DNA of 64,000 nt, taken from Escherichia coli (GTDB lineage: Bacteria > Pseudomonadota > Gammaproteobacteria > Enterobacterales > Enterobacteriaceae). The stretch's first letter is position 1; the number at the start of each line of letters is the position of its first letter. The position numbers and the translations under genes were made by a program. Below the pieces are notes generated by a model that saw only the letters and a program-made list of their open reading frames with translations, did no database searches and was not told where the DNA came from. This document shows positions 49,754-62,976 of this stretch, one piece after another. Location of the stretch: assembly GCF_001677475.2 (NCBI RefSeq), contig NZ_CP015229.1; one strand, given 5' to 3'.

Positions 49754-49788
49754 TCGAGTTCCACCTTCTTATTCATAAGGCGGGACAC
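49750..49788 (-). other. potB: potB 3'-terminal codons (…SRLMNKKVELE-stop) retained next to potC; probable prophage att core / junction
   Basis: Minus-strand frame upstream of potC reads …KVSRLMNKKVELE with TGA overlapping the potC ATG, matching the remembered PotB C-terminus; the frame closes about 40 codons upstream with non-PotB sequence. Confidence 0.55.
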
Positions 49789-49919
49789 TTTCAGGATTTT
49801 GAATTTATTCAATTTTTTCCTTTCTCCAAAATCTCTCCAAAACGTTTCCCCAAAACTAGGCCACGCATTTTACAACACTTTTTTCCTGAGATGGTGACGG
49901 ATATTCCATATGGTGTTTG

Positions 49920-51038
49920 TCAAATAACCAACTTAACCCATTCCTGACCTCGAGTATCGTTATAGCGATCGGTGGTTGCCTGGACTTTATGTCCTAGTAA
50001 TGTTTTTGTATCGATACCCTGTGCACGGTACAGCCGTTCTGATAGAGAGCGTTGTTCATGAAATGTTGGCGGAGTTTTTCCTGCTGGTGGAATTATCCCA
50101 GCCAGATCCCGTGCTTTGGCAAAGTAGTCGCTCAGGTTGTCTTTACTCATCGACTTCGGTTGTTTCTGGTGCCGACTATGGATTAGATATGGACTTAATA
50201 TTCTGTCTCGGCACCCATCAATAACTTCTTTTAACGTTATCCCAATGGCATCACAGCGTAGTGTAAGCGGTAACGCCAGACGCATTCCGGTTTTTCCTTG
50301 GGTGATATGCAAGTGTTCGTTCCACACATCTGAAAAACGCATGTGGCAAATGTCATCACGGCGCTGACCAGTAACAATCGCAAGAAGCATTGCGTTACGG
50401 ATAAAGTGTTTTTCAGGCGTTGCGTTGTAAATTTTTTGCCAGTCTTCCAGGGTGAGTCTGGCTCTGGTTACTTTAGGGATTGGTTTACGGGTAGCCTCCG
50501 GAGGATTCCATCCAGGAGGAACTTCCCCTGCATGCTGTGCTTCTTTATAAATATCAAGCCATAATCCGCGATTTACTCTCGCTGTGCTGACCATGTCTTT
50601 ATCCAGCCACTCATCCAGTATTAATGCAAAGTCTCTTACTTCCAGTTCTTTCAATGGGTGGTTTCCCAGACGGGAAACCAGGAATGCAGCCATTCGCGCT
50701 TTTTCTTTGTGGGTTGTAGCTGCAATATCTCCATTTTTCAGGCGCGCGTCCTGTATTTTCAGATATCGATCAACCCATGCCTTTAATCTGATACCCCGAC
50801 GTTTTGTTGCTGATGGACTTTCATCAATTTTGCGCATGAAATATTCAGCTTCTGCTGCAGCTATTCGCTGATTGGCTGTGGAAGCGATTTTTTCTGCCTT
50901 ACCTTTGTCTGTTCCGAGTCCGTGAAATTTTCCAGTCACAGGATTTTTATACTGGTAGTAAACTCTGCCAGTTCTGCGATCAAACTTTTCGTAAAGACCG
51001 GCTACGTCAGTGCTGTTTTTTCGTGGCCTCGGTGACAT
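49920..51038 (-). CDS. int: lambda-family tyrosine integrase
   Basis: 372 aa; C-terminal catalytic region HEQRSLSERLY…LLGHKVQATTDRYNDTRGQEW resembling lambda Int. Confidence 0.93.
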   Translation of the reverse strand: MSPRPRKNSTDVAGLYEKFDRRTGRVYYQYKNPVTGKFHGLGTDKGKAEKIASTANQRIAAAEAEYFMRKIDESPSATKRRGIRLKAWVDRYLKIQDARLKNGDIAATTHKEKARMAAFLVSRLGNHPLKELEVRDFALILDEWLDKDMVSTARVNRGLWLDIYKEAQHAGEVPPGWNPPEATRKPIPKVTRARLTLEDWQKIYNATPEKHFIRNAMLLAIVTGQRRDDICHMRFSDVWNEHLHITQGKTGMRLALPLTLRCDAIGITLKEVIDGCRDRILSPYLIHSRHQKQPKSMSKDNLSDYFAKARDLAGIIPPAGKTPPTFHEQRSLSERLYRAQGIDTKTLLGHKVQATTDRYNDTRGQEWVKLVI

Positions 51039-51285
51039 GAGTTAAAATCTCCTTCAGTGCATCATCATCGCCAGTATGAATTTCCGGCGCAATTCCCGTT
51101 TCACCAGGCCCAACAAATACTGCTCGGCGATCTATCAGCCAACGCCCACGAATTTTTTGTGGTCTTGGAACGATGTATCCTAGTTTTCCGTATTTCACCA
51201 GGGTAGTGTTTGTTATTGGGAGACTGAACCGTTTTGGTTTCCACTCGTCGAGCGTTATCAGGTACTGTTCGCTCATGGCTATCAC
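51007..51285 (-). CDS. xis: excisionase (Xis-like)
   Basis: Small basic ORF overlapping int start; LITLDEW…VFVGP pattern resembling lambda Xis; start may be at MSEQYL (51276). Confidence 0.7.
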   Translation of the reverse strand: MIAMSEQYLITLDEWKPKRFSLPITNTTLVKYGKLGYIVPRPQKIRGRWLIDRRAVFVGPGETGIAPEIHTGDDDALKEILTHVTEATKKQH

Positions 51286-51337: not shown

Positions 51338-53809
51338 TTAAAAATCAGCCTGATTCGGGATCAGTTTTTGCCAGATAGCTGAAACGTATTTTGCCTGGTG
51401 ACGAGCGTCATCAAGTGCATTATGGCGCTCACCTTCGAATGGGATAGCAGTTCTGGCATCGAAGTCTATGGTTTTCCCCAGCTCAACGATTGTGCGTACA
51501 TCGCGATCGTTGTAGTAACGCCACGGGCAGGGGATCCCCTGCCGTTCGTATGAACGGCGCAAAATCGTGTTGTCGAAGTTGGCTCCATTTCCCCAGACCT
51601 GAACAAAAAACTCACCGGAGTTTTCGGCGATAAATTCCCGCAATTGCAGTAGTGCATCATCTAACGGGATTTCATCGGTCATAATGGCAGACTGCGCTTC
51701 ACGTGATTGCTTCAGCCACCATTTAATGACGTCACGATCAATGACTCCGCCAGCAGTATCCAGATCGATGGTCTTGCTAAATTCCGGTCCCATATCACCG
51801 GTTTGCGGATCGAAAAATATTGCACCTATTGAGATAATCGGGGCATCAGGATTTTTTCCCATGGTTTCAAGGTCGATCATCAGATGAATCCCCGCTCTGC
51901 TGGTGGATGTGAGATTATGATGACTGTTCATCTTAATTAAGGGATCTGTCGCCTCGCCAGTTTTATTATCGCTGGCGTGATGCTGATTGCCGCCAGGGTT
52001 CTCCTTGTGTGGATGTTCAGCGCCTTCCATTTCCTCCGGATCATTTTCCTGAACTTCAGGCTGATTCTCTTCATCGAATATTTCCTGGTATGTTGCGTCA
52101 CCCATCACCGCGCCACAATCAGGGCAGTTGCCGCCACCGCTCTGACCGCAGGCTGTGCAGACTTTTTCCGGTTCCTGTTGCGCTACTGGCTCAGGTTGTT
52201 TCGTTTCTGGCTCGTTTTGTTGCGTATTTGGGCTGTTTTGTTCCGCTTTCTGGTCGTTCTGTTCCGTTTCTTGCTGGTTCTGGTTCACAGAATCGCGGGT
52301 TTCAATCCCCTTCACCCATTTCGGATCATTCGGATCGCTAATCCCTGCAACAAATTCACCACGTGATACTGCAAGCAGTTCATCGGCGTCATGCTGGCTG
52401 ATATTGGCTGCCTGCATAATTTTGTTTACTTCGTCAGCGGTAACTTTTACCGGCCCTGGTTGTGCGGTCGTGTCAGATGCACCAGTATTTTGTTGTGAAC
52501 CTGAGTATGTACCGTTTTTGCGGGCGAAATATTCTTCTTTCGTGATTTCAGTAGCCCCGGCAGCCAGTGCCTTATCCAGACCAGAAAGTTTGTTTGCGCG
52601 ACCGTATTTTTCGCCATCCTTGTCGGTGAAGAGGAAGTAGAATGGCCCCTCACGCTCTACAGATGGTTCGACTTCCACTTTGCATTCGGTTTTTTCGTTG
52701 TCCGGAATTGCCGTTTCCACTGCATCAGTTTCTGGTACTGGCGACGAGAGAGTATCAGTTGCGCTCTGATTTCTTCCTTCATCTTCAAACACGCCCTTTG
52801 TAGTCAGGTATTCAGTAATGTATTTGTTCAGTGCCACAGGGTCTTTGTGAATGTCGATCGGACGTTCACGAACAAGGCCAAAAATAGTCTGGCGGTCGTA
52901 GCGAAGGGCATCAGGCTGTTTGCGCATTGATGCCGAGATACGCTTCCAGTCTTCGCGGTCGTTGTCGATAACTTCATTTTTTGCCCAGCGATGGATGCTG
53001 CCATCAATGTTTCCGACATCCACATCACCAGGCCAGAGAGCGTAGGCCAGTTCGTCATCCAGTGTTTTCCATGTCTGCTTGTATTCGCGATGAGTGGCAG
53101 CAATGACCGGGCTGATTTTTCCTGTTGAATTTTCAGTGTGCTGTTGATTGGCTCTGGCGCGGGCGAGATCAACAACAGACGTGTATTTTCCGGTTTCCTT
53201 GCGTTCACCTTCGCGACGTTTTTTCCAGATGCGCATCTCTGCCTGAATTTCGGGCCATTTGGCACCAGGCTTACATTTATGCTTAACCCACCCGATGGCA
53301 TGCAGCTTAAGCTCCGGATACATGGCGTTAACTTCTGGCATTTTCATCAACGCTTCAACGATATGTCCGTCGAATGTTGCCATGTCTTCCTGCAACAATT
53401 CCTGCGCGCTAATCACCATATCAACGGTGATGTTTTCACATGTACCGAACTTAACCAGGACCGCGTTCTGTACTTCAAGGGACAGCTTGTCAAAATTGAC
53501 GTTAATAGGATCGGATTCTGGTTCGACCGGAATAAAGGAAGCGGATTCCTCATCCCAGCGGTTTTCCTGCATATATTCGGTATCCCAGGAGTCGATAGCA
53601 GGGCGGGGCATGCCGGGTTTATCTTCGCAGACAAGAAATTTATAAGCGCAGTCCTGAGCAGCAGGATATTGCTCCAGGAATTGCCAGGTAAATTTGGCAC
53701 GGGCGCGGCGTTCATCACCGGCTTCAATGGCAGTGGCTACAGCAACTGCGCCCTCTTCTTTTATTGCCTGTTCGTCCGGAATGGCGGCGCAAATAAAGAC
53801 TTTACTCAT
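51338..53809 (-). CDS. large phage protein with C-terminal DEDDh 3'-5' exonuclease domain (often annotated exonuclease VIII-like)
   Basis: 823 aa; C-terminal IHLMIDLETMG…GNGANFDNTIL…HNALDDARH (DnaQ-like Exo I/II/III motifs); central CTACGQSGGGNCPDCG zinc ribbon; Q/E-rich linker. Confidence 0.8.
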   Translation of the reverse strand: MSKVFICAAIPDEQAIKEEGAVAVATAIEAGDERRARAKFTWQFLEQYPAAQDCAYKFLVCEDKPGMPRPAIDSWDTEYMQENRWDEESASFIPVEPESDPINVNFDKLSLEVQNAVLVKFGTCENITVDMVISAQELLQEDMATFDGHIVEALMKMPEVNAMYPELKLHAIGWVKHKCKPGAKWPEIQAEMRIWKKRREGERKETGKYTSVVDLARARANQQHTENSTGKISPVIAATHREYKQTWKTLDDELAYALWPGDVDVGNIDGSIHRWAKNEVIDNDREDWKRISASMRKQPDALRYDRQTIFGLVRERPIDIHKDPVALNKYITEYLTTKGVFEDEGRNQSATDTLSSPVPETDAVETAIPDNEKTECKVEVEPSVEREGPFYFLFTDKDGEKYGRANKLSGLDKALAAGATEITKEEYFARKNGTYSGSQQNTGASDTTAQPGPVKVTADEVNKIMQAANISQHDADELLAVSRGEFVAGISDPNDPKWVKGIETRDSVNQNQQETEQNDQKAEQNSPNTQQNEPETKQPEPVAQQEPEKVCTACGQSGGGNCPDCGAVMGDATYQEIFDEENQPEVQENDPEEMEGAEHPHKENPGGNQHHASDNKTGEATDPLIKMNSHHNLTSTSRAGIHLMIDLETMGKNPDAPIISIGAIFFDPQTGDMGPEFSKTIDLDTAGGVIDRDVIKWWLKQSREAQSAIMTDEIPLDDALLQLREFIAENSGEFFVQVWGNGANFDNTILRRSYERQGIPCPWRYYNDRDVRTIVELGKTIDFDARTAIPFEGERHNALDDARHQAKYVSAIWQKLIPNQADF

Positions 53810-53902: not shown

Positions 53903-54094
53903 TTAAAGTCCTGCCGGTATTTCGTTATTATTAGTGTGAGTAGTTTTATCTACCGGATAACAGTTACCGGGAATTTTTTGTTCTGCTGCTGCAGCCATGC
54001 ATTCTTTCATTGAACCGTATAAGCCAGTCACCAGCTCAAGAGATTCGCCGGAAACAAGATAAACTGTCAGAACGAGTGCAAATGTTGTATTCAT
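53903..54094 (-). CDS. small membrane-anchored protein (kil-position), unknown function
   Basis: 63 aa with N-terminal hydrophobic helix; start overlaps upstream gene stop (ATGA). Confidence 0.55.
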   Translation of the reverse strand: MNTTFALVLTVYLVSGESLELVTGLYGSMKECMAAAAEQKIPGNCYPVDKTTHTNNNEIPAGL

Positions 54095-54279
54095 TGTTTA
54101 TATCCTTTTTGCAGCAGGTCCAGACGAGCCAGCATTGAAGGAATGCATACTTCATTTAACAGGTCCTGCTCGAGTTTTCTCTGCTTAATGGCGTCTTCAA
54201 TAAATGTTTTGTCTCCAGTGATAACGCCAATTTCGAAACGAAGTTCAGACGTGCTGGCATTACATGATAACTTTTCCAT
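54091..54279 (-). CDS. small hypothetical protein (kil-position)
   Basis: 62 aa from MEKLSCNASTSEL with GAGGA SD 9 nt upstream; the track's 97-aa version lacks an RBS and overlaps an inverted repeat. Confidence 0.55.
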   Translation of the reverse strand: MEKLSCNASTSELRFEIGVITGDKTFIEDAIKQRKLEQDLLNEVCIPSMLARLDLLQKGYKQ

Positions 54280-54296
54280 TATCGCGTCCTCAACAA

Positions 54297-54444
54297 TGAA
54301 TTTTGTGATGCGGTGCCTGGTGCCTCCAGGTGACGTTAACCAGTTAACAATTAACGCAGGATACAGAGAATCCACCCATAACACTGTTTTTGGTTTTTAC
54401 TGTTCCGCGTGCGCTGAGCCGCATTCACCGCATCACAAAATTCA
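54297..54444. repeat. perfect 19-bp inverted repeat pair (tgaattttgtgatgcggtg / caccgcatcacaaaattca) flanking a 110-bp palindrome-rich spacer
   Basis: Arms at 54297-54315 and 54426-54444 checked base by base; spacer contains cctggtgcctccagg and gttaaccagttaac palindromes. Confidence 0.85.
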
Positions 54445-54856
54445 CTTTTAAAAAAGGGCGGCAGAGCAGTCACGGAGTAAAACTGATACCGCCAAATGTC
54501 ACCAGAATATTGATAACAGAGGGCGTTGTAGCGGGGTTGTCACTTAAGCGTATGGTCAACCTGACAACCCGGTGTCCTCAACGGGGAAAGGCGTCCCTCC
54601 CACCCCCGCCATACTTACCGCCGCGCCATTTCGCGGGTCGCCACAACCGGAAGCGCACGGTCGAATTAAATTTAACGACACCGTGCAGTGAGACGAACTT
54701 CGCCGTGCGCTTTCGTGTTGTGTGCCTGCTTTTAACCACGTCAGGCGAGGTGGTTTCCGTCATTCCCCAACGACAGGAAATCTGTATAATCTGGGTATCC
54801 CCAACGATCCAAGGAAATCATATGACAGAGCAAAGAGCACAAGCAGGTGATGGTGT

Positions 54857-55303
54857 ATGGACCGGGATGATATTCTTGACAGAATTTTTTATGGCTATTT
54901 TCTTGAGCAACTGTTTTCTGTAGCGACTGGTCGTCTCGATAAACTTCTCTCAGTAGTGAGTATTATCCTCGGTTCATCTGTCATTGGCGGATTCATTCCG
55001 GAAATTTCTGGCGTTTTTATTGTTGTGATCGCAACCGTCCAAACGATTTATGGATTCGGACAAAAGTCAGGTAATACCATGAGAAAATCCGCAGAATATT
55101 TGCAGCTTTTTGATGATGCAGAAAAATATTCTGATTCGGAATTGAAAATTCAGTTAAAAACTCTGGAAAAAACAGATGATCATATTTGGTCATCACTTAA
55201 AGATATTGCGATCTTAAAAACACAGATCAAAATAGGCGTCTCCATCGAACAACAAGAGAAGTTGCCCACAAAATCCAAATTGATGCGATTTCTTTGTGGT
55301 TAG
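54857..55303 (+). CDS. 2-TM membrane protein on opposite strand at the Rac sieB position; candidate superinfection-exclusion / abortive-infection effector
   Basis: 148 aa, SD AGGTGA 6 nt upstream; two adjacent hydrophobic helices (LSVVSIILGSSVIGGFIP / ISGVFIVVIATVQTIYGF) then charged C-terminal tail; convergent with flanking minus-strand genes. Confidence 0.65.
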   Translation: MDRDDILDRIFYGYFLEQLFSVATGRLDKLLSVVSIILGSSVIGGFIPEISGVFIVVIATVQTIYGFGQKSGNTMRKSAEYLQLFDDAEKYSDSELKIQLKTLEKTDDHIWSSLKDIAILKTQIKIGVSIEQQEKLPTKSKLMRFLCG

Positions 55304-56010: not shown

Positions 56011-56126
56011 ACGCCTCGGGCTGGCTACTTAATCCCTGACCACTACCGGGTAACTCTAGGTATTGCCCTGTATTGTGTGGGACGGGATGGGTTGGTATGG
56101 GAAAACTATAGGAAATGCCTAATTGC

Positions 56127-56147
56127 TTGTCAATAGGCTATGCCTAA
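56127..56147. promoter_or_regulatory. operator-like site, downstream copy of 21-bp inverted repeat flanking repressor gene
   Basis: ttgtcaataggctatgcctaa is the exact reverse complement of 56772-56792; additional tgcctaat half-sites at 56114-56124 and 56160-56170. Confidence 0.6.
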
Positions 56148-56241: not shown

Positions 56242-56718
56242 TTAAGTTCCTGTCTTGGTGATGTTCTGGCTTTTCCGTTTTGATTCTTGATTTTTCAGAT
56301 AGTTAGCTACCTTCATTTCCATTGCGGCAATGTAGGCGCGAACGTCATGATCAACCCAACTAGGCTCCGTAGCATTTCCAGATAAGAGGAAAGCCACAAT
56401 TGCTCTTTTTTCATCAGAGGCGGCTTGATAAAGGCTGTTTATGTCTAAAAGTTCACTTTTTGTATCTGAAGTGGATGGGGTTGGTATGGGGTATTCGTTA
56501 AGCCCCCAATGCTCTGGACCAACCACATCAGAAAAGAAACGCCATAGTTCTGGAAGTTTGTCTTTACTTATCGAACCTTTCTTAATCCAGTCATGGATTG
56601 ATGGTGGTTGGACTTTGAAATGACGTGCGATTTCCGCCTTTGATTTGACGGCTCCTGATGCAATTTTTTTGTTAATGGCCTGCTCTATCGCTCGGCCTAA
56701 GTCTTTACCACTAAGCAT
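56242..56718 (-). CDS. prophage repressor, RacR-like (HTH, no S24 peptidase domain)
   Basis: 158 aa with N-terminal HTH (KAEIARHFKVQPPSIHDWIKKG); divergent from Cro-like gene; same length and position as Rac RacR. Confidence 0.75.
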   Translation of the reverse strand: MLSGKDLGRAIEQAINKKIASGAVKSKAEIARHFKVQPPSIHDWIKKGSISKDKLPELWRFFSDVVGPEHWGLNEYPIPTPSTSDTKSELLDINSLYQAASDEKRAIVAFLLSGNATEPSWVDHDVRAYIAAMEMKVANYLKNQESKRKSQNITKTGT

Positions 56719-61528: not shown

Positions 61529-62362
61529 GTGACTGAATTAACCAAAGAGCAATTAATCGAAGAAGCCAAATTAAAAATAGCGATTGCGAAATGCTACCCC
61601 AGTTCAGGGATGGCACGGGTAGAGGGCGAGTTATTCAAAATTGCACTGGCATCGCTGGAAGCAGAACCAATAGGTGCTTTCCACATTGTAGAACAGCAAG
61701 TTGACGGAACAAGTTACTATATCAAGGATGGGGAATGGCCTATTGATACTGGGATTATTGAAGTCTACGCCGCCTCACCGATGACGGTAGTGCTGAACGA
61801 TGTATCTGGACCTCTTGCTCTTGCTTACAAAGAGCTTACACCTGCGATTATGCGCAACCATATCGCTGTATTCGAACGATACGGAATAACCCCAAACGAT
61901 AGCATTACTACAATTCATGCGCTTCGAATTGCGCTGGATGGCATAGAGCGGAGCGACGCCATGCTTCATGGACGTCAGCCATGCCATCAAATTACCGCCT
62001 CAATGGCAAAAGCTATTGCGCTTAAACTTGGTGCCGAACTGAATAACGAAGAAGCAGAGATTTTCGCGGATGGGTATAACACCGCCATGCTTCATGCCGA
62101 AAACTTTCGGGAAAATAAGAATTCGTCAACCAATAATTTTCGGATAACCTCGGAAACGTCAACCAACTCTCCGGCAATCCCTGATGAGGTGTTGTCCGCA
62201 ATCCTGAAGGTCGCCAGGCTTCGTGCAGATTTCGATGCTTCTGAAGGTGACAGGCGAGGTATCGGTGGTTGTCTGGATGAGGCCGAGCAAGAACTTATCG
62301 TTACCATTAACAAATACGCCAGTCAGATCGCAGTAGAAGCGATACAGGGGGCGCACCAATGA
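61529..62362 (+). CDS. hypothetical phage protein (277 aa), function unknown
   Basis: Largest ORF of nin-like array, GTG start after hairpin ggccgcccgaaagggcgg; no recognisable catalytic motif. Confidence 0.6.
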   Translation: MTELTKEQLIEEAKLKIAIAKCYPSSGMARVEGELFKIALASLEAEPIGAFHIVEQQVDGTSYYIKDGEWPIDTGIIEVYAASPMTVVLNDVSGPLALAYKELTPAIMRNHIAVFERYGITPNDSITTIHALRIALDGIERSDAMLHGRQPCHQITASMAKAIALKLGAELNNEEAEIFADGYNTAMLHAENFRENKNSSTNNFRITSETSTNSPAIPDEVLSAILKVARLRADFDASEGDRRGIGGCLDEAEQELIVTINKYASQIAVEAIQGAHQ

Positions 62363-62576: not shown

Positions 62577-62820
62577 ATTCATTCCGTATGGGAATTCCCA
62601 TATCGGGCAAAAACGGTTTGCTGTAAAGCGAGAGTTAAGTAGAATTGCTGCGGGTGCTTGAGGCTATCTGCCTCGGGCATGCCGCCGTAAGGCAGACAGA
62701 GAAAAGCCCCAGTTAACATTACGCGTCCTGCAAGACGCTTAACATTAATCTGAGGCCATATCTATGACTTGCACACGTAGGTTAGCCTCTTACGTGCCGA
62801 AAGGCAAGGAGAAGCAGGCT

Positions 62821-62976
62821 ATGAAGCAGCAAAAGGCGATGTTAATCGCCCTGATCGTCATCTGTTTAACCGTTATAGTGACGGCACTGGTAACGAGGAA
62901 AGACCTCTGCGAGGTACGAATCCGAACCGGCCAGACGGAGGTCGCTGTCTTCACAGCTTACGAACCTGAGGAGTAA
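62821..62976 (+). CDS. hok: Hok/Gef-family type I toxin (HokD/RelF-like)
   Basis: 51 aa MKQQKAMLIALIVICLTVIVTALVTRKDLCEVRIRTGQTEVAVFTAYEPEE; AAGGAG SD; in-frame upstream ATG at 62764 gives a 70-aa mok-like extension. Confidence 0.85.
   Translation: MKQQKAMLIALIVICLTVIVTALVTRKDLCEVRIRTGQTEVAVFTAYEPEE

What the first reader, a model, noticed from the sequence alone, without database searches (positions are those of the whole stretch)
51338..53809. Stand-alone 823-aa DEDDh exonuclease protein with no annealase partner in the window
The C-terminal roughly 180 aa carry DnaQ-like Exo I/II/III motifs. The N-terminal roughly 600 aa are unassigned and contain a CxxC-x-CxxC zinc ribbon and a Q/E-rich low-complexity linker. 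No RecT/Bet/Erf-like recombinase is visible between xis and the immunity region, unlike lambda exo-bet or Rac recE-recT. The protein may work in anti-defence or DNA processing rather than classical Red-type recombination.
Basis: partly seen in the sequence, partly recalled or inferred. Interest (0 to 1): 0.45.

Follow-up and report, generated by a model that had tools for sequence, protein, structure and literature searches.

The report
RecE-like prophage protein with swapped nuclease
This is the intact form of the common E. coli prophage gene ydfE: a relative of the RecE recombination nuclease whose cutting domain has been replaced by a different, opposite-direction exonuclease that needs no annealing partner. 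The gene is ordinary and already catalogued, but its role is still untested.

Summary
The ORF is real: 51338-53809, minus strand, 823 aa. Its C-terminus is a DEDDh exonuclease and it carries a CxxC-x7-CxxC knuckle. No annealase lies between xis and the repressor.

It is not an orphan. PHROG 2082 matches it end to end. Sequences at least 80% identical to its nuclease-domain DNA occur in 4088 of 5426 complete E. coli genomes, and full-length copies occur in isolated lambdoid phages.
- aa 1-256 are 92% identical to the K-12 Qin pseudogene ydfE.
- aa 262-625 align with the non-catalytic part of RecE (aa 278-591).
- aa 642-813 are Rv2179c/T4-DexA-like, with all five catalytic residues present.

Among relatives, the same N-terminal scaffold carries one of several alternative ends:
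- the RecE nuclease, with a RecT-family gene directly downstream in 3 of 3 loci;
- this DEDDh domain, with no recT in 8 of 8 loci;
- a fourth tail that I could not assign.

The missing annealase is therefore a regular consequence of a domain swap. The most likely activity is annealase-independent 3'-to-5' trimming of DNA ends or oligonucleotides after induction. The biological role is inferred, not shown. The residues proposed for 5hmC-directed defence in DexA/EcD are not conserved here.

The parts
51338..53809 (-). Whole gene: 823-aa YdfE-type exonuclease, the intact counterpart of the K-12 Qin pseudogene ydfE
   Evidence: ORF. phrog_2082 matches 1-823 of 823. Homologues are 92-95% identical and named exonuclease or 3'-5' exoribonuclease.
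53042..53809 (-). Module A (aa 1-256): YdfE_N-type head, with an alpha/beta subdomain at aa 1-100 and a helical subdomain at aa 108-222
52400..53041 (-). Module B (aa 257-470): a helical domain at aa 245-340 and a small beta-hairpin/helix domain at aa 388-432, joined by disordered linkers
   Evidence: AlphaFold2 model. aa 262-340 align with RecE aa 278-355. Module B recurs across relatives.
51887..52399 (-). Module C (aa 471-641): the conserved motif SRGEFVAGISDPNDPKWVKG, a Q/E-rich acidic linker, the zinc knuckle and an acidic tail. This is the part most similar to RecE
   Evidence: BLASTP against RecE aa 463-591 is close to 80% identical by eye in this stretch. The DNA is 82.9% identical to Rac-SA53 recE (H25). 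dN/dS is 0.35-0.49.
52115..52159 (-). CxxC-x7-CxxC zinc-knuckle motif (aa 551-565, CTACGQSGGGNCPDC)
   Evidence: Regex on the translation. Conserved in RecE as CNACGQTGGDNCPDC. The Pfam double zinc ribbon hit is weak, E 0.13.
51341..51886 (-). Module D (aa 642-823): DEDDh 3'-5' exonuclease domain of the Rv2179c/T4 DexA type
   Evidence: PF16473 at E 4.5e-66. The only solved relative found by sequence is DexA, 8KEL/8KEN. Catalytic residues are D646, E648, D746, H796 and D801.
51007..51285 (-). Excisionase, directly downstream of the exonuclease gene
   Evidence: PF07825 and phrog_629.
49920..51038 (-). Integrase at the prophage end, next to potC
   Evidence: ORF. The homologous locus L001 annotates it as a phage integrase.
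53903..54094 (-). YdfD-like DUF1482 gene, directly upstream of the exonuclease gene
   Evidence: PF07358 at E 2.8e-19.
54091..54384 (-). ORF whose C-terminal 62 aa are DicB, the cell-division inhibitor
   Evidence: PF05358 at E 3.6e-38.
54456..54507 (-). DicF small RNA in the same operon
   Evidence: Rfam RF00039, 77 bits against a gathering score of 48.
56105..56133 (-). Best sigma-70-like site (TTGACA-17-TATAGT, 11 of 12). I read it as the early-left promoter for ydfA through the exonuclease gene, xis and int
   Evidence: Consensus scan. The role is inferred from position, and site counts were not enriched over shuffled sequence.
56242..56718 (-). RacR-type repressor of the immunity region
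   Evidence: The homologous gene in L001 is annotated racR.

Best explanation
The gene is the intact YdfE-type exonuclease of a Qin/Rac-like lambdoid prophage. It is a domain-swapped paralogue of RecE.

**Anatomy.** It keeps the RecE-type central region, the acidic linker and the zinc knuckle. Its head is the YdfE_N type. In place of RecE's PD-(D/E)XK 5'-to-3' nuclease it carries a DexA/Rv2179c-type DEDDh domain.

**Inferred mechanism.** The gene is transcribed from the early-left promoter after the repressor is lost. The N-terminal scaffold takes the catalytic end to the same target that RecE and the fused Rad52-like annealases of sister proteins act on, most plausibly linear DNA ends or a host factor bound there. 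The DEDDh domain then removes nucleotides from 3' ends of single-stranded DNA, overhangs or oligonucleotides in a Mg-dependent reaction.

**Why there is no annealase.** RecT partners the RecE nuclease, so this variant neither needs nor has an annealase. Strand pairing, if it is required, would be left to host RecA pathways.

**Shown and inferred.** The domain composition, the catalytic residues, the modular swaps, the genomic context and purifying selection are shown. The polarity and substrate of the nuclease, the targeting role of the scaffold and the timing of expression are inferred.
For: **Domains of the protein**
- PF16473 at E 4.5e-66.
- All five DEDDh residues are conserved against DexA.
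- The only solved relative found by sequence is T4 DexA, a 3'-5' DNA exonuclease.
- RecE homology is confined to aa 262-625 and stops at the nuclease boundary.
- The NCBIfam RecE model hits only its positions 260-603, at 275 bits against a cutoff of 1269.

**Modular shuffling among relatives**
- Among the representatives of at least 450 aa from the 50%-identity library, heads (A or RecE_N) and tails (DEDDh, RecE nuclease, a third tail, a fourth tail) combine freely.

**Context rule**
- The RecE-nuclease tail is followed by a RecT-family gene in K-12 Rac, L033 and L039.
- The DEDDh tail is followed by xis/int, or by int alone, with no recT called between the repressor and int. This holds in the window, L001, mEp460, HannyBb, L034, L037, L038 and L040. 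L037 is a short contig that does not reach the repressor.
- No annealase is annotated in the whole mEp460 genome or in the non-structural half of HannyBb, and tblastn finds none.

**The gene is maintained**
- dN/dS is 0.13-0.34 in the folded domains.

**Operon position**
- The gene lies downstream of an 11-of-12 promoter-like site, with no comparable site directly upstream of it.
Against: - No experiment on this protein, or on any full-length member of its family, was found in the searched literature.
- The scaffold has no informative structural relative, so 'targets DNA ends' is an argument by association with its sister proteins.
- NCBI and Pfam name the domain an exoribonuclease, so RNA is not excluded as a substrate.
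- A 3'-5' exonuclease destroys the 3' tails that RecA or annealases use, so a direct pro-recombination role is not obvious.
- Only eight DEDDh-type and three RecE-type loci were inspected, not the whole population.
- Annealases of types for which I had no query (Erf, Red-beta, Sak4, gp2.5) were excluded only through annotations and family scans.
Confidence: 0.6

Rival explanations
1. Counter-defence enzyme. After induction or infection the DEDDh domain degrades host immune nucleic acids, such as retron msDNA, DNA made by defence reverse transcriptases, or signalling oligonucleotides. Alternatively it acts as an anti-restriction function, as has been claimed for RecE.
For: - The gene is in an early operon.
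- RecE, which shares the scaffold, degrades msDNA in vivo and is described as an anti-restriction gene (bioRxiv 10.1101/2020.06.22.160242).
- The supplement of Kang et al. 2025 overlays DexA on the dinucleotide-degrading enzyme REXO2 (PMC12153337).
Against: - There is no direct evidence.
- A 640-aa scaffold shared with recombination effectors, namely the RecE nuclease with RecT and a fused Rad52-like annealase, points to DNA-end metabolism.
- RecE's effect on msDNA activates the retron toxin, so for the phage it is a liability rather than a counter-defence.
Confidence: 0.2
2. Prophage-encoded defence of the HREX type. Like the E. coli DexA homologue EcD, the protein would spare unmodified DNA and destroy the 5hmC-modified DNA of incoming T-even phages.
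For: - Kang et al. 2025 (PMC12153337) report that plasmid-borne EcD digests T4 DNA and protects E. coli.
- The window domain belongs to the same DexA-like family.
- The gene is widespread in prophages.
Against: - EcD is a separate stand-alone protein, starting MIDTET... and ending ...TIPETY (primers). The 189-aa proteins of that type are only 35% identical to aa 644-823.
- The proposed 5hmC-recognition residues are not conserved: DexA W152 aligns with Y766 and D169 with K779. The tetramer residue D90, which EcD has lost, is retained here as D718.
- The gene sits inside the repressed early-left operon with no strong promoter-like site directly upstream, unlike typical lysogen-expressed exclusion genes.
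- PADLOC gives only a weak generic DEDDh hit, E 3e-5.
Confidence: 0.12
3. Exoribonuclease. As the Pfam and NCBI names suggest, the domain trims RNA 3' ends, for example in processing or turnover of DicF or other phage and host RNAs.
For: - The Pfam family is named after the M. tuberculosis exoribonuclease Rv2179c.
- Many database names read '3'-5' exoribonuclease'.
- DicF is encoded about 650 bp upstream in the same operon.
Against: - The only solved relative found by sequence is the DNA exonuclease DexA.
- All identified alternative ends on the same scaffold are DNA-recombination proteins.
- DEDDh-type genes also occur in operons where no dicB gene was called and no dicF search was made, such as L034 and L040.
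Confidence: 0.08
4. Classical two-component recombinase whose annealase has simply been missed, because it is either a novel small ORF nearby or encoded elsewhere in the phage.
For: - Several small ORFs between the gene and the repressor have unknown function.
- The window ends before the prophage does.
Against: - Every neighbouring ORF is 148 aa or shorter and belongs to a known non-annealase family, or to a family of unknown function that recurs in these operons.
- The whole mEp460 genome and the non-structural half of HannyBb have no annealase annotated, and tblastn finds none.
- A DEDDh enzyme has the wrong polarity to feed an annealase.
Confidence: 0.04

Closest known systems
RecE (exodeoxyribonuclease VIII) of the Rac prophage, E. 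coli K-12
   Same: - The position is the same: early-left operon of a lambdoid prophage, upstream of xis and int.
- The central helical region, the SRGEFV.GISDPNDPKWVKG motif, the acidic linker and the CxxC..CxxC knuckle are homologous (aa 262-625 against RecE 278-591, E 3e-61).
- The overall size is similar.
   Different: - There is no PF06630 Exonuc_VIII head and no PD-(D/E)XK nuclease domain.
- There is no adjacent recT.
- The score is far below the NCBIfam equivalog cutoff, 275 against 1269 bits.
- The predicted polarity is opposite.
YdfE, a pseudogene of the Qin prophage in E. coli K-12 (Pfam YdfE_N / YdfE_C)
   Same: - 92% identity over aa 1-256.
- The same operon order: ydfA-ydfB-ydfC-dicF-dicB-ydfD-ydfE.
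   Different: The K-12 copy is cut off by IS2 after about 256 codons and has lost modules B, C and D. The window copy is complete.
T4 DexA (exonuclease A; PDB 8KEL/8KEN) and the E. coli stand-alone homologue EcD ('HREX', PMC12153337)
   Same: They share the DEDDh fold family and the catalytic residues.
   Different: - DexA and EcD are 190-230 aa stand-alone proteins, whereas this domain is the end of an 823-aa multidomain protein.
- It lacks DexA's insertions.
- The proposed hmC-recognition residues are replaced by Y766 and K779.
- Identity to EcD-type proteins is 35%.
Sister proteins with a fused Rad52-type annealase (phrog_2489 / phrog_7838, labelled 'exonuclease')
   Same: They have the same YdfE_N/YdfE_C scaffold and the same operon position.
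   Different: - In L035 and L036 the gene is followed by a Sipho_Gp157 gene.

Membership tests
DEDDh (DnaQ-like) exonucleases, Pfam PF16473 Rv2179c-like | Profile match above the curated threshold | tested here: met
   222.4 bits against a cutoff of 27, covering 2-177 of the 177 profile positions.
DEDDh (DnaQ-like) exonucleases, Pfam PF16473 Rv2179c-like | The acidic residues of Exo I/II/III plus His five residues before the last Asp | tested here: met
   D646, E648, D746, H796 and D801 align with DexA D7, E9, D119, H186 and D191.
DEDDh (DnaQ-like) exonucleases, Pfam PF16473 Rv2179c-like | Metal-dependent 3'-to-5' exonuclease activity | not testable with these tools
   This needs an enzyme assay.
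RecE / exodeoxyribonuclease VIII (NCBIfam NF007259 equivalog) | Full-length match above the curated cutoff | tested here: not met
   275 bits against a cutoff of 1269, and only model positions 260-603 of 877 are matched.
RecE / exodeoxyribonuclease VIII (NCBIfam NF007259 equivalog) | C-terminal PD-(D/E)XK nuclease domain (RecE aa 564-866) | tested here: not met
   BLASTP homology ends at RecE aa 591. phmmer with RecE aa 600-866 gave no hit on P0024, the 92%-identical cluster representative used as a proxy for the query.
RecE / exodeoxyribonuclease VIII (NCBIfam NF007259 equivalog) | N-terminal Exonuc_VIII domain (PF06630) | tested here: not met
   There is no PF06630 hit. The head is the YdfE type.
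RecE / exodeoxyribonuclease VIII (NCBIfam NF007259 equivalog) | Central region, acidic linker and zinc knuckle | tested here: met
   aa 262-625 against RecE aa 278-591 at E 3e-61, and close to 80% identity by eye from aa 470 onwards.
Two-component exonuclease/annealase recombinases (Red, RecET) | An annealase gene adjacent to the exonuclease gene | tested here: not met
   None in the window and none in seven other DEDDh-type loci.
Two-component exonuclease/annealase recombinases (Red, RecET) | A 5'-to-3' double-strand exonuclease that leaves 3' tails | tested here: not met
   The catalytic domain belongs to the DEDDh class, whose characterised members work 3'-to-5'. The polarity itself was not assayed.
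YdfE family (Pfam PF27430 YdfE_N + PF27432 YdfE_C) | Match to both domain families | tested here: inconclusive
   These models are not in the local Pfam copy. Proteins 92-95% identical to the query carry both as precomputed hits, with the names taken. aa 1-256 are 92% identical to K-12 YdfE.
HREX: hmC-recognising DexA/EcD exonucleases (PMC12153337) | Trp equivalent to DexA W152 and an acidic residue equivalent to D169 | tested here: not met
   The aligned residues are Y766 and K779. The EcD-type 189-aa protein has W132 and E145 at these positions. The alignment has only four sequences, so the exact register carries some uncertainty.
HREX: hmC-recognising DexA/EcD exonucleases (PMC12153337) | For the defensive, dimer-only form: loss of the tetramer residue D90 | tested here: not met
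   D718 is retained. The EcD type has A78.
HREX: hmC-recognising DexA/EcD exonucleases (PMC12153337) | Protection against T-even phages | not testable with these tools
   This needs plaque assays.

The most novel reading that the evidence does not exclude
The YdfE/RecE N-terminal region is a general docking platform of lambdoid phages. Onto it are plugged alternative DNA-end effectors: a 5'-3' nuclease working with RecT, a fused Rad52-type annealase, or this 3'-5' DEDDh nuclease. On this reading the DEDDh version defines an uncharacterised, annealase-independent pathway of end-processing or counter-defence. That pathway would be present in most E. coli genomes, and it would explain what the long-mysterious N-terminal two-thirds of RecE is for.
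Probability: 0.3. Interest if true: 0.6.

Novelty: already known. Interest (0 to 1): 0.3.

Why it matters
The gene itself is catalogued and very common, so finding it is not news. What could matter is the pattern around it.
- The same roughly 450-640-aa scaffold, whose function in RecE has been unknown since the 1990s (review PMC11611040), carries nucleases of predicted opposite polarity or a Rad52-like annealase.
- That pattern gives a concrete handle for asking what the scaffold binds, through domain swaps and pull-downs.
- It also suggests that at least one PHROG family labelled 'exonuclease' is really an annealase fusion.
- Many lambdoid phages evidently do without their own annealase.
- For recombineering, natural scaffold-annealase fusions may be useful parts.

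Tried and rejected
- **Pfam, NCBIfam and PADLOC on the N-terminus.** The local Pfam copy has no model for aa 1-640. PADLOC gives only a generic DEDDh hit.
- **Third-tail annealase idea.**
  - A sequence profile against the PDB found nothing.
  - Foldseek against the PDB found nothing with E at or below 0.001.
- **Transfer of the HREX defence mechanism.** I rejected this as a direct assignment after reconstructing the start and end of EcD from the paper's primers, finding EcD-type 189-aa proteins in viral contigs, and finding the key residues not conserved. The exact EcD sequence was not recovered.
- **Literature.** Searches for ydfE with exonuclease, for Rv2179c with phage, and for exodeoxyribonuclease VIII with DEDD found no study of this protein.
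- **Pseudogene or decaying remnant.** Rejected by dN/dS and by intact copies in isolated phages.
- **Hidden annealase.** Rejected by the scans listed under the observation check.
- **Promoter scan.** Overall counts were below the shuffled expectation, so only the two near-consensus sites were used, and only as positional hints.
Full report
**1.

One search lists an ATG-started 823-aa ORF at 51338-53809 on the minus strand. Pfam places PF16473 (Rv2179c-like 3'-5' exoribonuclease domain) at aa 642-813, with E 4.5e-66 and 222 bits against a cutoff of 27.

Aligned with T4 DexA, fetched as L006, the five DEDDh residues are all present. D646, E648, D746, H796 and D801 correspond to DexA D7, E9, D119, H186 and D191. 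The motif CTAC-x7-CPDC lies at aa 551-565, and aa 471-545 are rich in Q, E and N.

**2. Setting**

The window is Escherichia-type chromosome (lolE, nagK, cobB, potD, potC) followed by a lambdoid prophage that starts next to potC. On the minus strand, reading from the repressor side, the order is:
- a RacR-type repressor (56242-56718);
- a near-consensus promoter-like site (56133-56105);
- ydfA/DUF1391, ydfB and a ydfC-like gene;
- the DicF small RNA (54456-54507, Rfam 77 bits);
- dicB, then ydfD/DUF1482;
- the 823-aa gene, then xis and int.

This is the dic operon of the K-12 Qin prophage, here with a Rac-type immunity region. In K-12 the gene after ydfD is the pseudogene ydfE, cut off by IS2. 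The first 256 aa of the window protein are 92% identical to it. The window therefore holds the intact form of ydfE.

**3. It is a common, catalogued protein**

- phrog_2082 matches residues 1-823 of 823.
- The large protein database returned 7828 clusters at E at or below 1e-5. The top hits are 92-95% identical 823-aa E. coli proteins named 'exonuclease' or '3'-5' exoribonuclease'. They carry three precomputed Pfam families: PF27430, PF16473 and PF27432. name the two new ones YdfE_N and YdfE_C. They are not in the local Pfam copy, which is why one search showed nothing for the N-terminus.
- The DNA of the nuclease domain alone is found in 4088 of 5426 complete E. coli genomes, with up to 7 copies per genome.
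- Full-length copies at 90-96% DNA identity are present in isolated phages, including mEp460_ev081, Tritos, HannyBb, PhiR42_1, Evi and the PPompW series.
- dN/dS against three homologues is 0.13-0.34 for the folded modules and 0.35-0.49 for the linker module. The whole gene is therefore maintained by selection.

**4. Relation to RecE**

BLASTP against K-12 RecE (L004) aligns aa 262-625 with RecE aa 278-591 at E 3e-61. From about aa 470 the two are close to 80% identical by eye. That stretch includes the motif SRGEFV.GISDPNDPKWVKG, the zinc knuckle and the acidic tail.

Homology stops where the RecE nuclease domain begins. NCBIfam's RecE equivalog matches only its positions 260-603, at 275 bits against a cutoff of 1269. 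There is no PF06630 head and no PD-(D/E)XK domain.

A 2023 review states that the RecE N-terminal region is of unknown function. It adds that the nuclease domain suffices genetically, and that full-length RecE improves linear-linear recombination (PMC11611040).

**5. The scaffold is modular**

An exhaustive HMMER search with aa 1-640 against 1.84 billion representatives found only 255 proteins at E at or below 0.001. This is a narrow family.

I mapped six query modules onto the 51 hits of at least 450 aa. Every combination occurs:
- the head is either YdfE_N-type (A) or RecE_N-type;
- the middle is B, with or without C;
- the end is one of several alternatives.

The alternative ends are:
- the DEDDh domain (the query and P0122, P0128, P0138, P0142, P0249);
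- the RecE nuclease (P0130, P0187, P0216, P0251, P0252, P0262, P0268 and others);
- a third domain of about 280 aa that has no Pfam hit at E at or below 0.001 in the members scanned and is shared by at least 14 representatives;
- a fourth tail (P0125, P0224, P0243, P0134).

**6. The third tail is a Rad52-type annealase**

Its conserved motif, KKSLTDAIKKALS.LGFSADV.LGLYD, reminded me of Rad52/Sak proteins, so I tested the idea.
- Pfam Rad52_Rad22 matches below threshold in 9 of 14 members, with a best E of 0.0029, over exactly that motif.
- An AlphaFold2 model (pLDDT 80.6) shows a helix, long beta-hairpins and a helix.

PHROGs labels these families (2489, 7838) 'exonuclease', which is probably a carried-over name.

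**7. Context rule**

| Tail type | Loci examined | Next gene(s) downstream |
|---|---|---|
| RecE nuclease | K-12 Rac; L033 (PF03837, E 2e-36); L039 (E 1e-86 to the L033 protein) | a RecT-family gene, in 3 of 3 |
| DEDDh | window; L001; mEp460; HannyBb; L034; L037; L038; L040 | xis/int or int alone, with no recT in 8 of 8 |

In the DEDDh loci no recT is called anywhere between the repressor and int, except that L037 is a short contig that does not reach the repressor. These loci include both head types.
- The complete mEp460 genome has no annotated annealase, though it does encode RusA.
- The non-structural half of HannyBb has none either.
- tblastn with two RecT proteins and the 14 Rad52-like tails found nothing in the window, mEp460 or HannyBb.

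The missing annealase is a regular property of this tail type, not a local loss.

**8. The N-terminal fold**

AlphaFold2 on aa 1-470, with a 36-sequence alignment, gave pLDDT 84.7. The confident subdomains are aa 1-100 (alpha/beta), 108-222 (helical), 245-340 (helical) and 388-432 (small hairpin/helix). The linkers at aa 223-235, 347-381 and 439-453 are disordered.

**9. The defence lead**

The only solved relative found by sequence is T4 DexA (8KEL/8KEN). Kang et al. 2025 (PMC12153337) report that an E. coli DexA homologue, EcD, cleaves hmC DNA, spares unmodified DNA and protects against T4.

EcD is not this protein. Its cloning primers encode MIDTET... at the start and ...TIPETY at the end. 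Stand-alone 189-aa proteins of that type, from viral contigs, carry the features the paper describes: A78, W132 and E145. They are only 35% identical to aa 644-823.

In the window protein the proposed hmC-recognition residues are Y766 and K779, and the tetramer residue D90 is retained as D718. The gene also lies in the repressed early operon, with no strong promoter-like site directly upstream. The HREX mechanism is therefore not supported here, although a defence role is not excluded.

**10. Most likely mechanism**

Shown:
- an intact DEDDh active site;
- a scaffold shared with RecE and with annealase fusions;
- an early-left operon position;
- no annealase;
- purifying selection.

Inferred:
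- after induction, the scaffold brings the domain to DNA ends or to a host factor there;
- the domain trims 3' ends of DNA or oligonucleotides without any annealase;
- any strand pairing is left to host pathways.

I put 0.6 on this description. It is high for the anatomy and for annealase independence, and much lower for the biological purpose.

The rivals are:
- counter-defence (0.2; RecE degrades msDNA and is called anti-restriction in bioRxiv 10.1101/2020.06.22.160242);
- HREX-like defence (0.12);
- an RNase role (0.08);
- a missed annealase (0.04).

**11. Verdict**

The protein is an already catalogued, very common prophage gene whose N-terminus is assigned to known, though functionally uncharacterised, families. 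The more interesting result is a by-product: the scaffold carries interchangeable ends, including a fused Rad52-like annealase.

Noticed in passing
[not shown]
   Followed up: yes
window 54456-54507 (-): A DicF small RNA (Rfam RF00039, 77 bits) lies in the same early-left operon, between the ydfC-like gene and dicB, as in K-12 Qin.
   Followed up: partly
window 62652-62826 (+): A sok antitoxin RNA of a hok/sok-type toxin-antitoxin locus (Rfam RF01794, 110.6 bits) lies in the late-early region of the prophage.
   Followed up: no
window 54857-55303 (+): A 148-aa ORF is encoded opposite to the early-left operon (phrog_6315, unknown function). By eye it has a long hydrophobic stretch. It sits where Rac and L034 carry the superinfection-exclusion gene sieB, so it may be a lysogen-expressed exclusion gene.
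   Followed up: partly
window 49754-51038 and L001:1455-2739: The prophage is integrated directly beside an intact potC, at the same site as in E. coli 08-00022. The best full-length match of the 7.4-kb region in 5426 E. coli genomes is only 93.5% identical, so this exact prophage variant is not in that collection.
   Followed up: partly
window 52020-52399 (aa 471-597), compared with K-12 recE: The linker and zinc-knuckle module is far more similar to RecE (close to 80% protein identity by eye, 83% DNA identity to Rac-SA53 recE) than the flanking modules are. It looks like a recent mosaic exchange, and it may be the recombination joint that lets nuclease ends be swapped.
   Followed up: partly
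Proteins P0125, P0224, P0243 and P0134 (phrog_26058): A fourth kind of C-terminal tail occurs on the same scaffold. It has no Pfam hit at E at or below 0.001 in the two members scanned and no detectable similarity to the other three tails. Its function is unknown.
   Followed up: no
window 61529-62362 (+): A 277-aa ORF in the nin-like region has no Pfam hit and matches only PHROGs of unknown function.
   Followed up: partly
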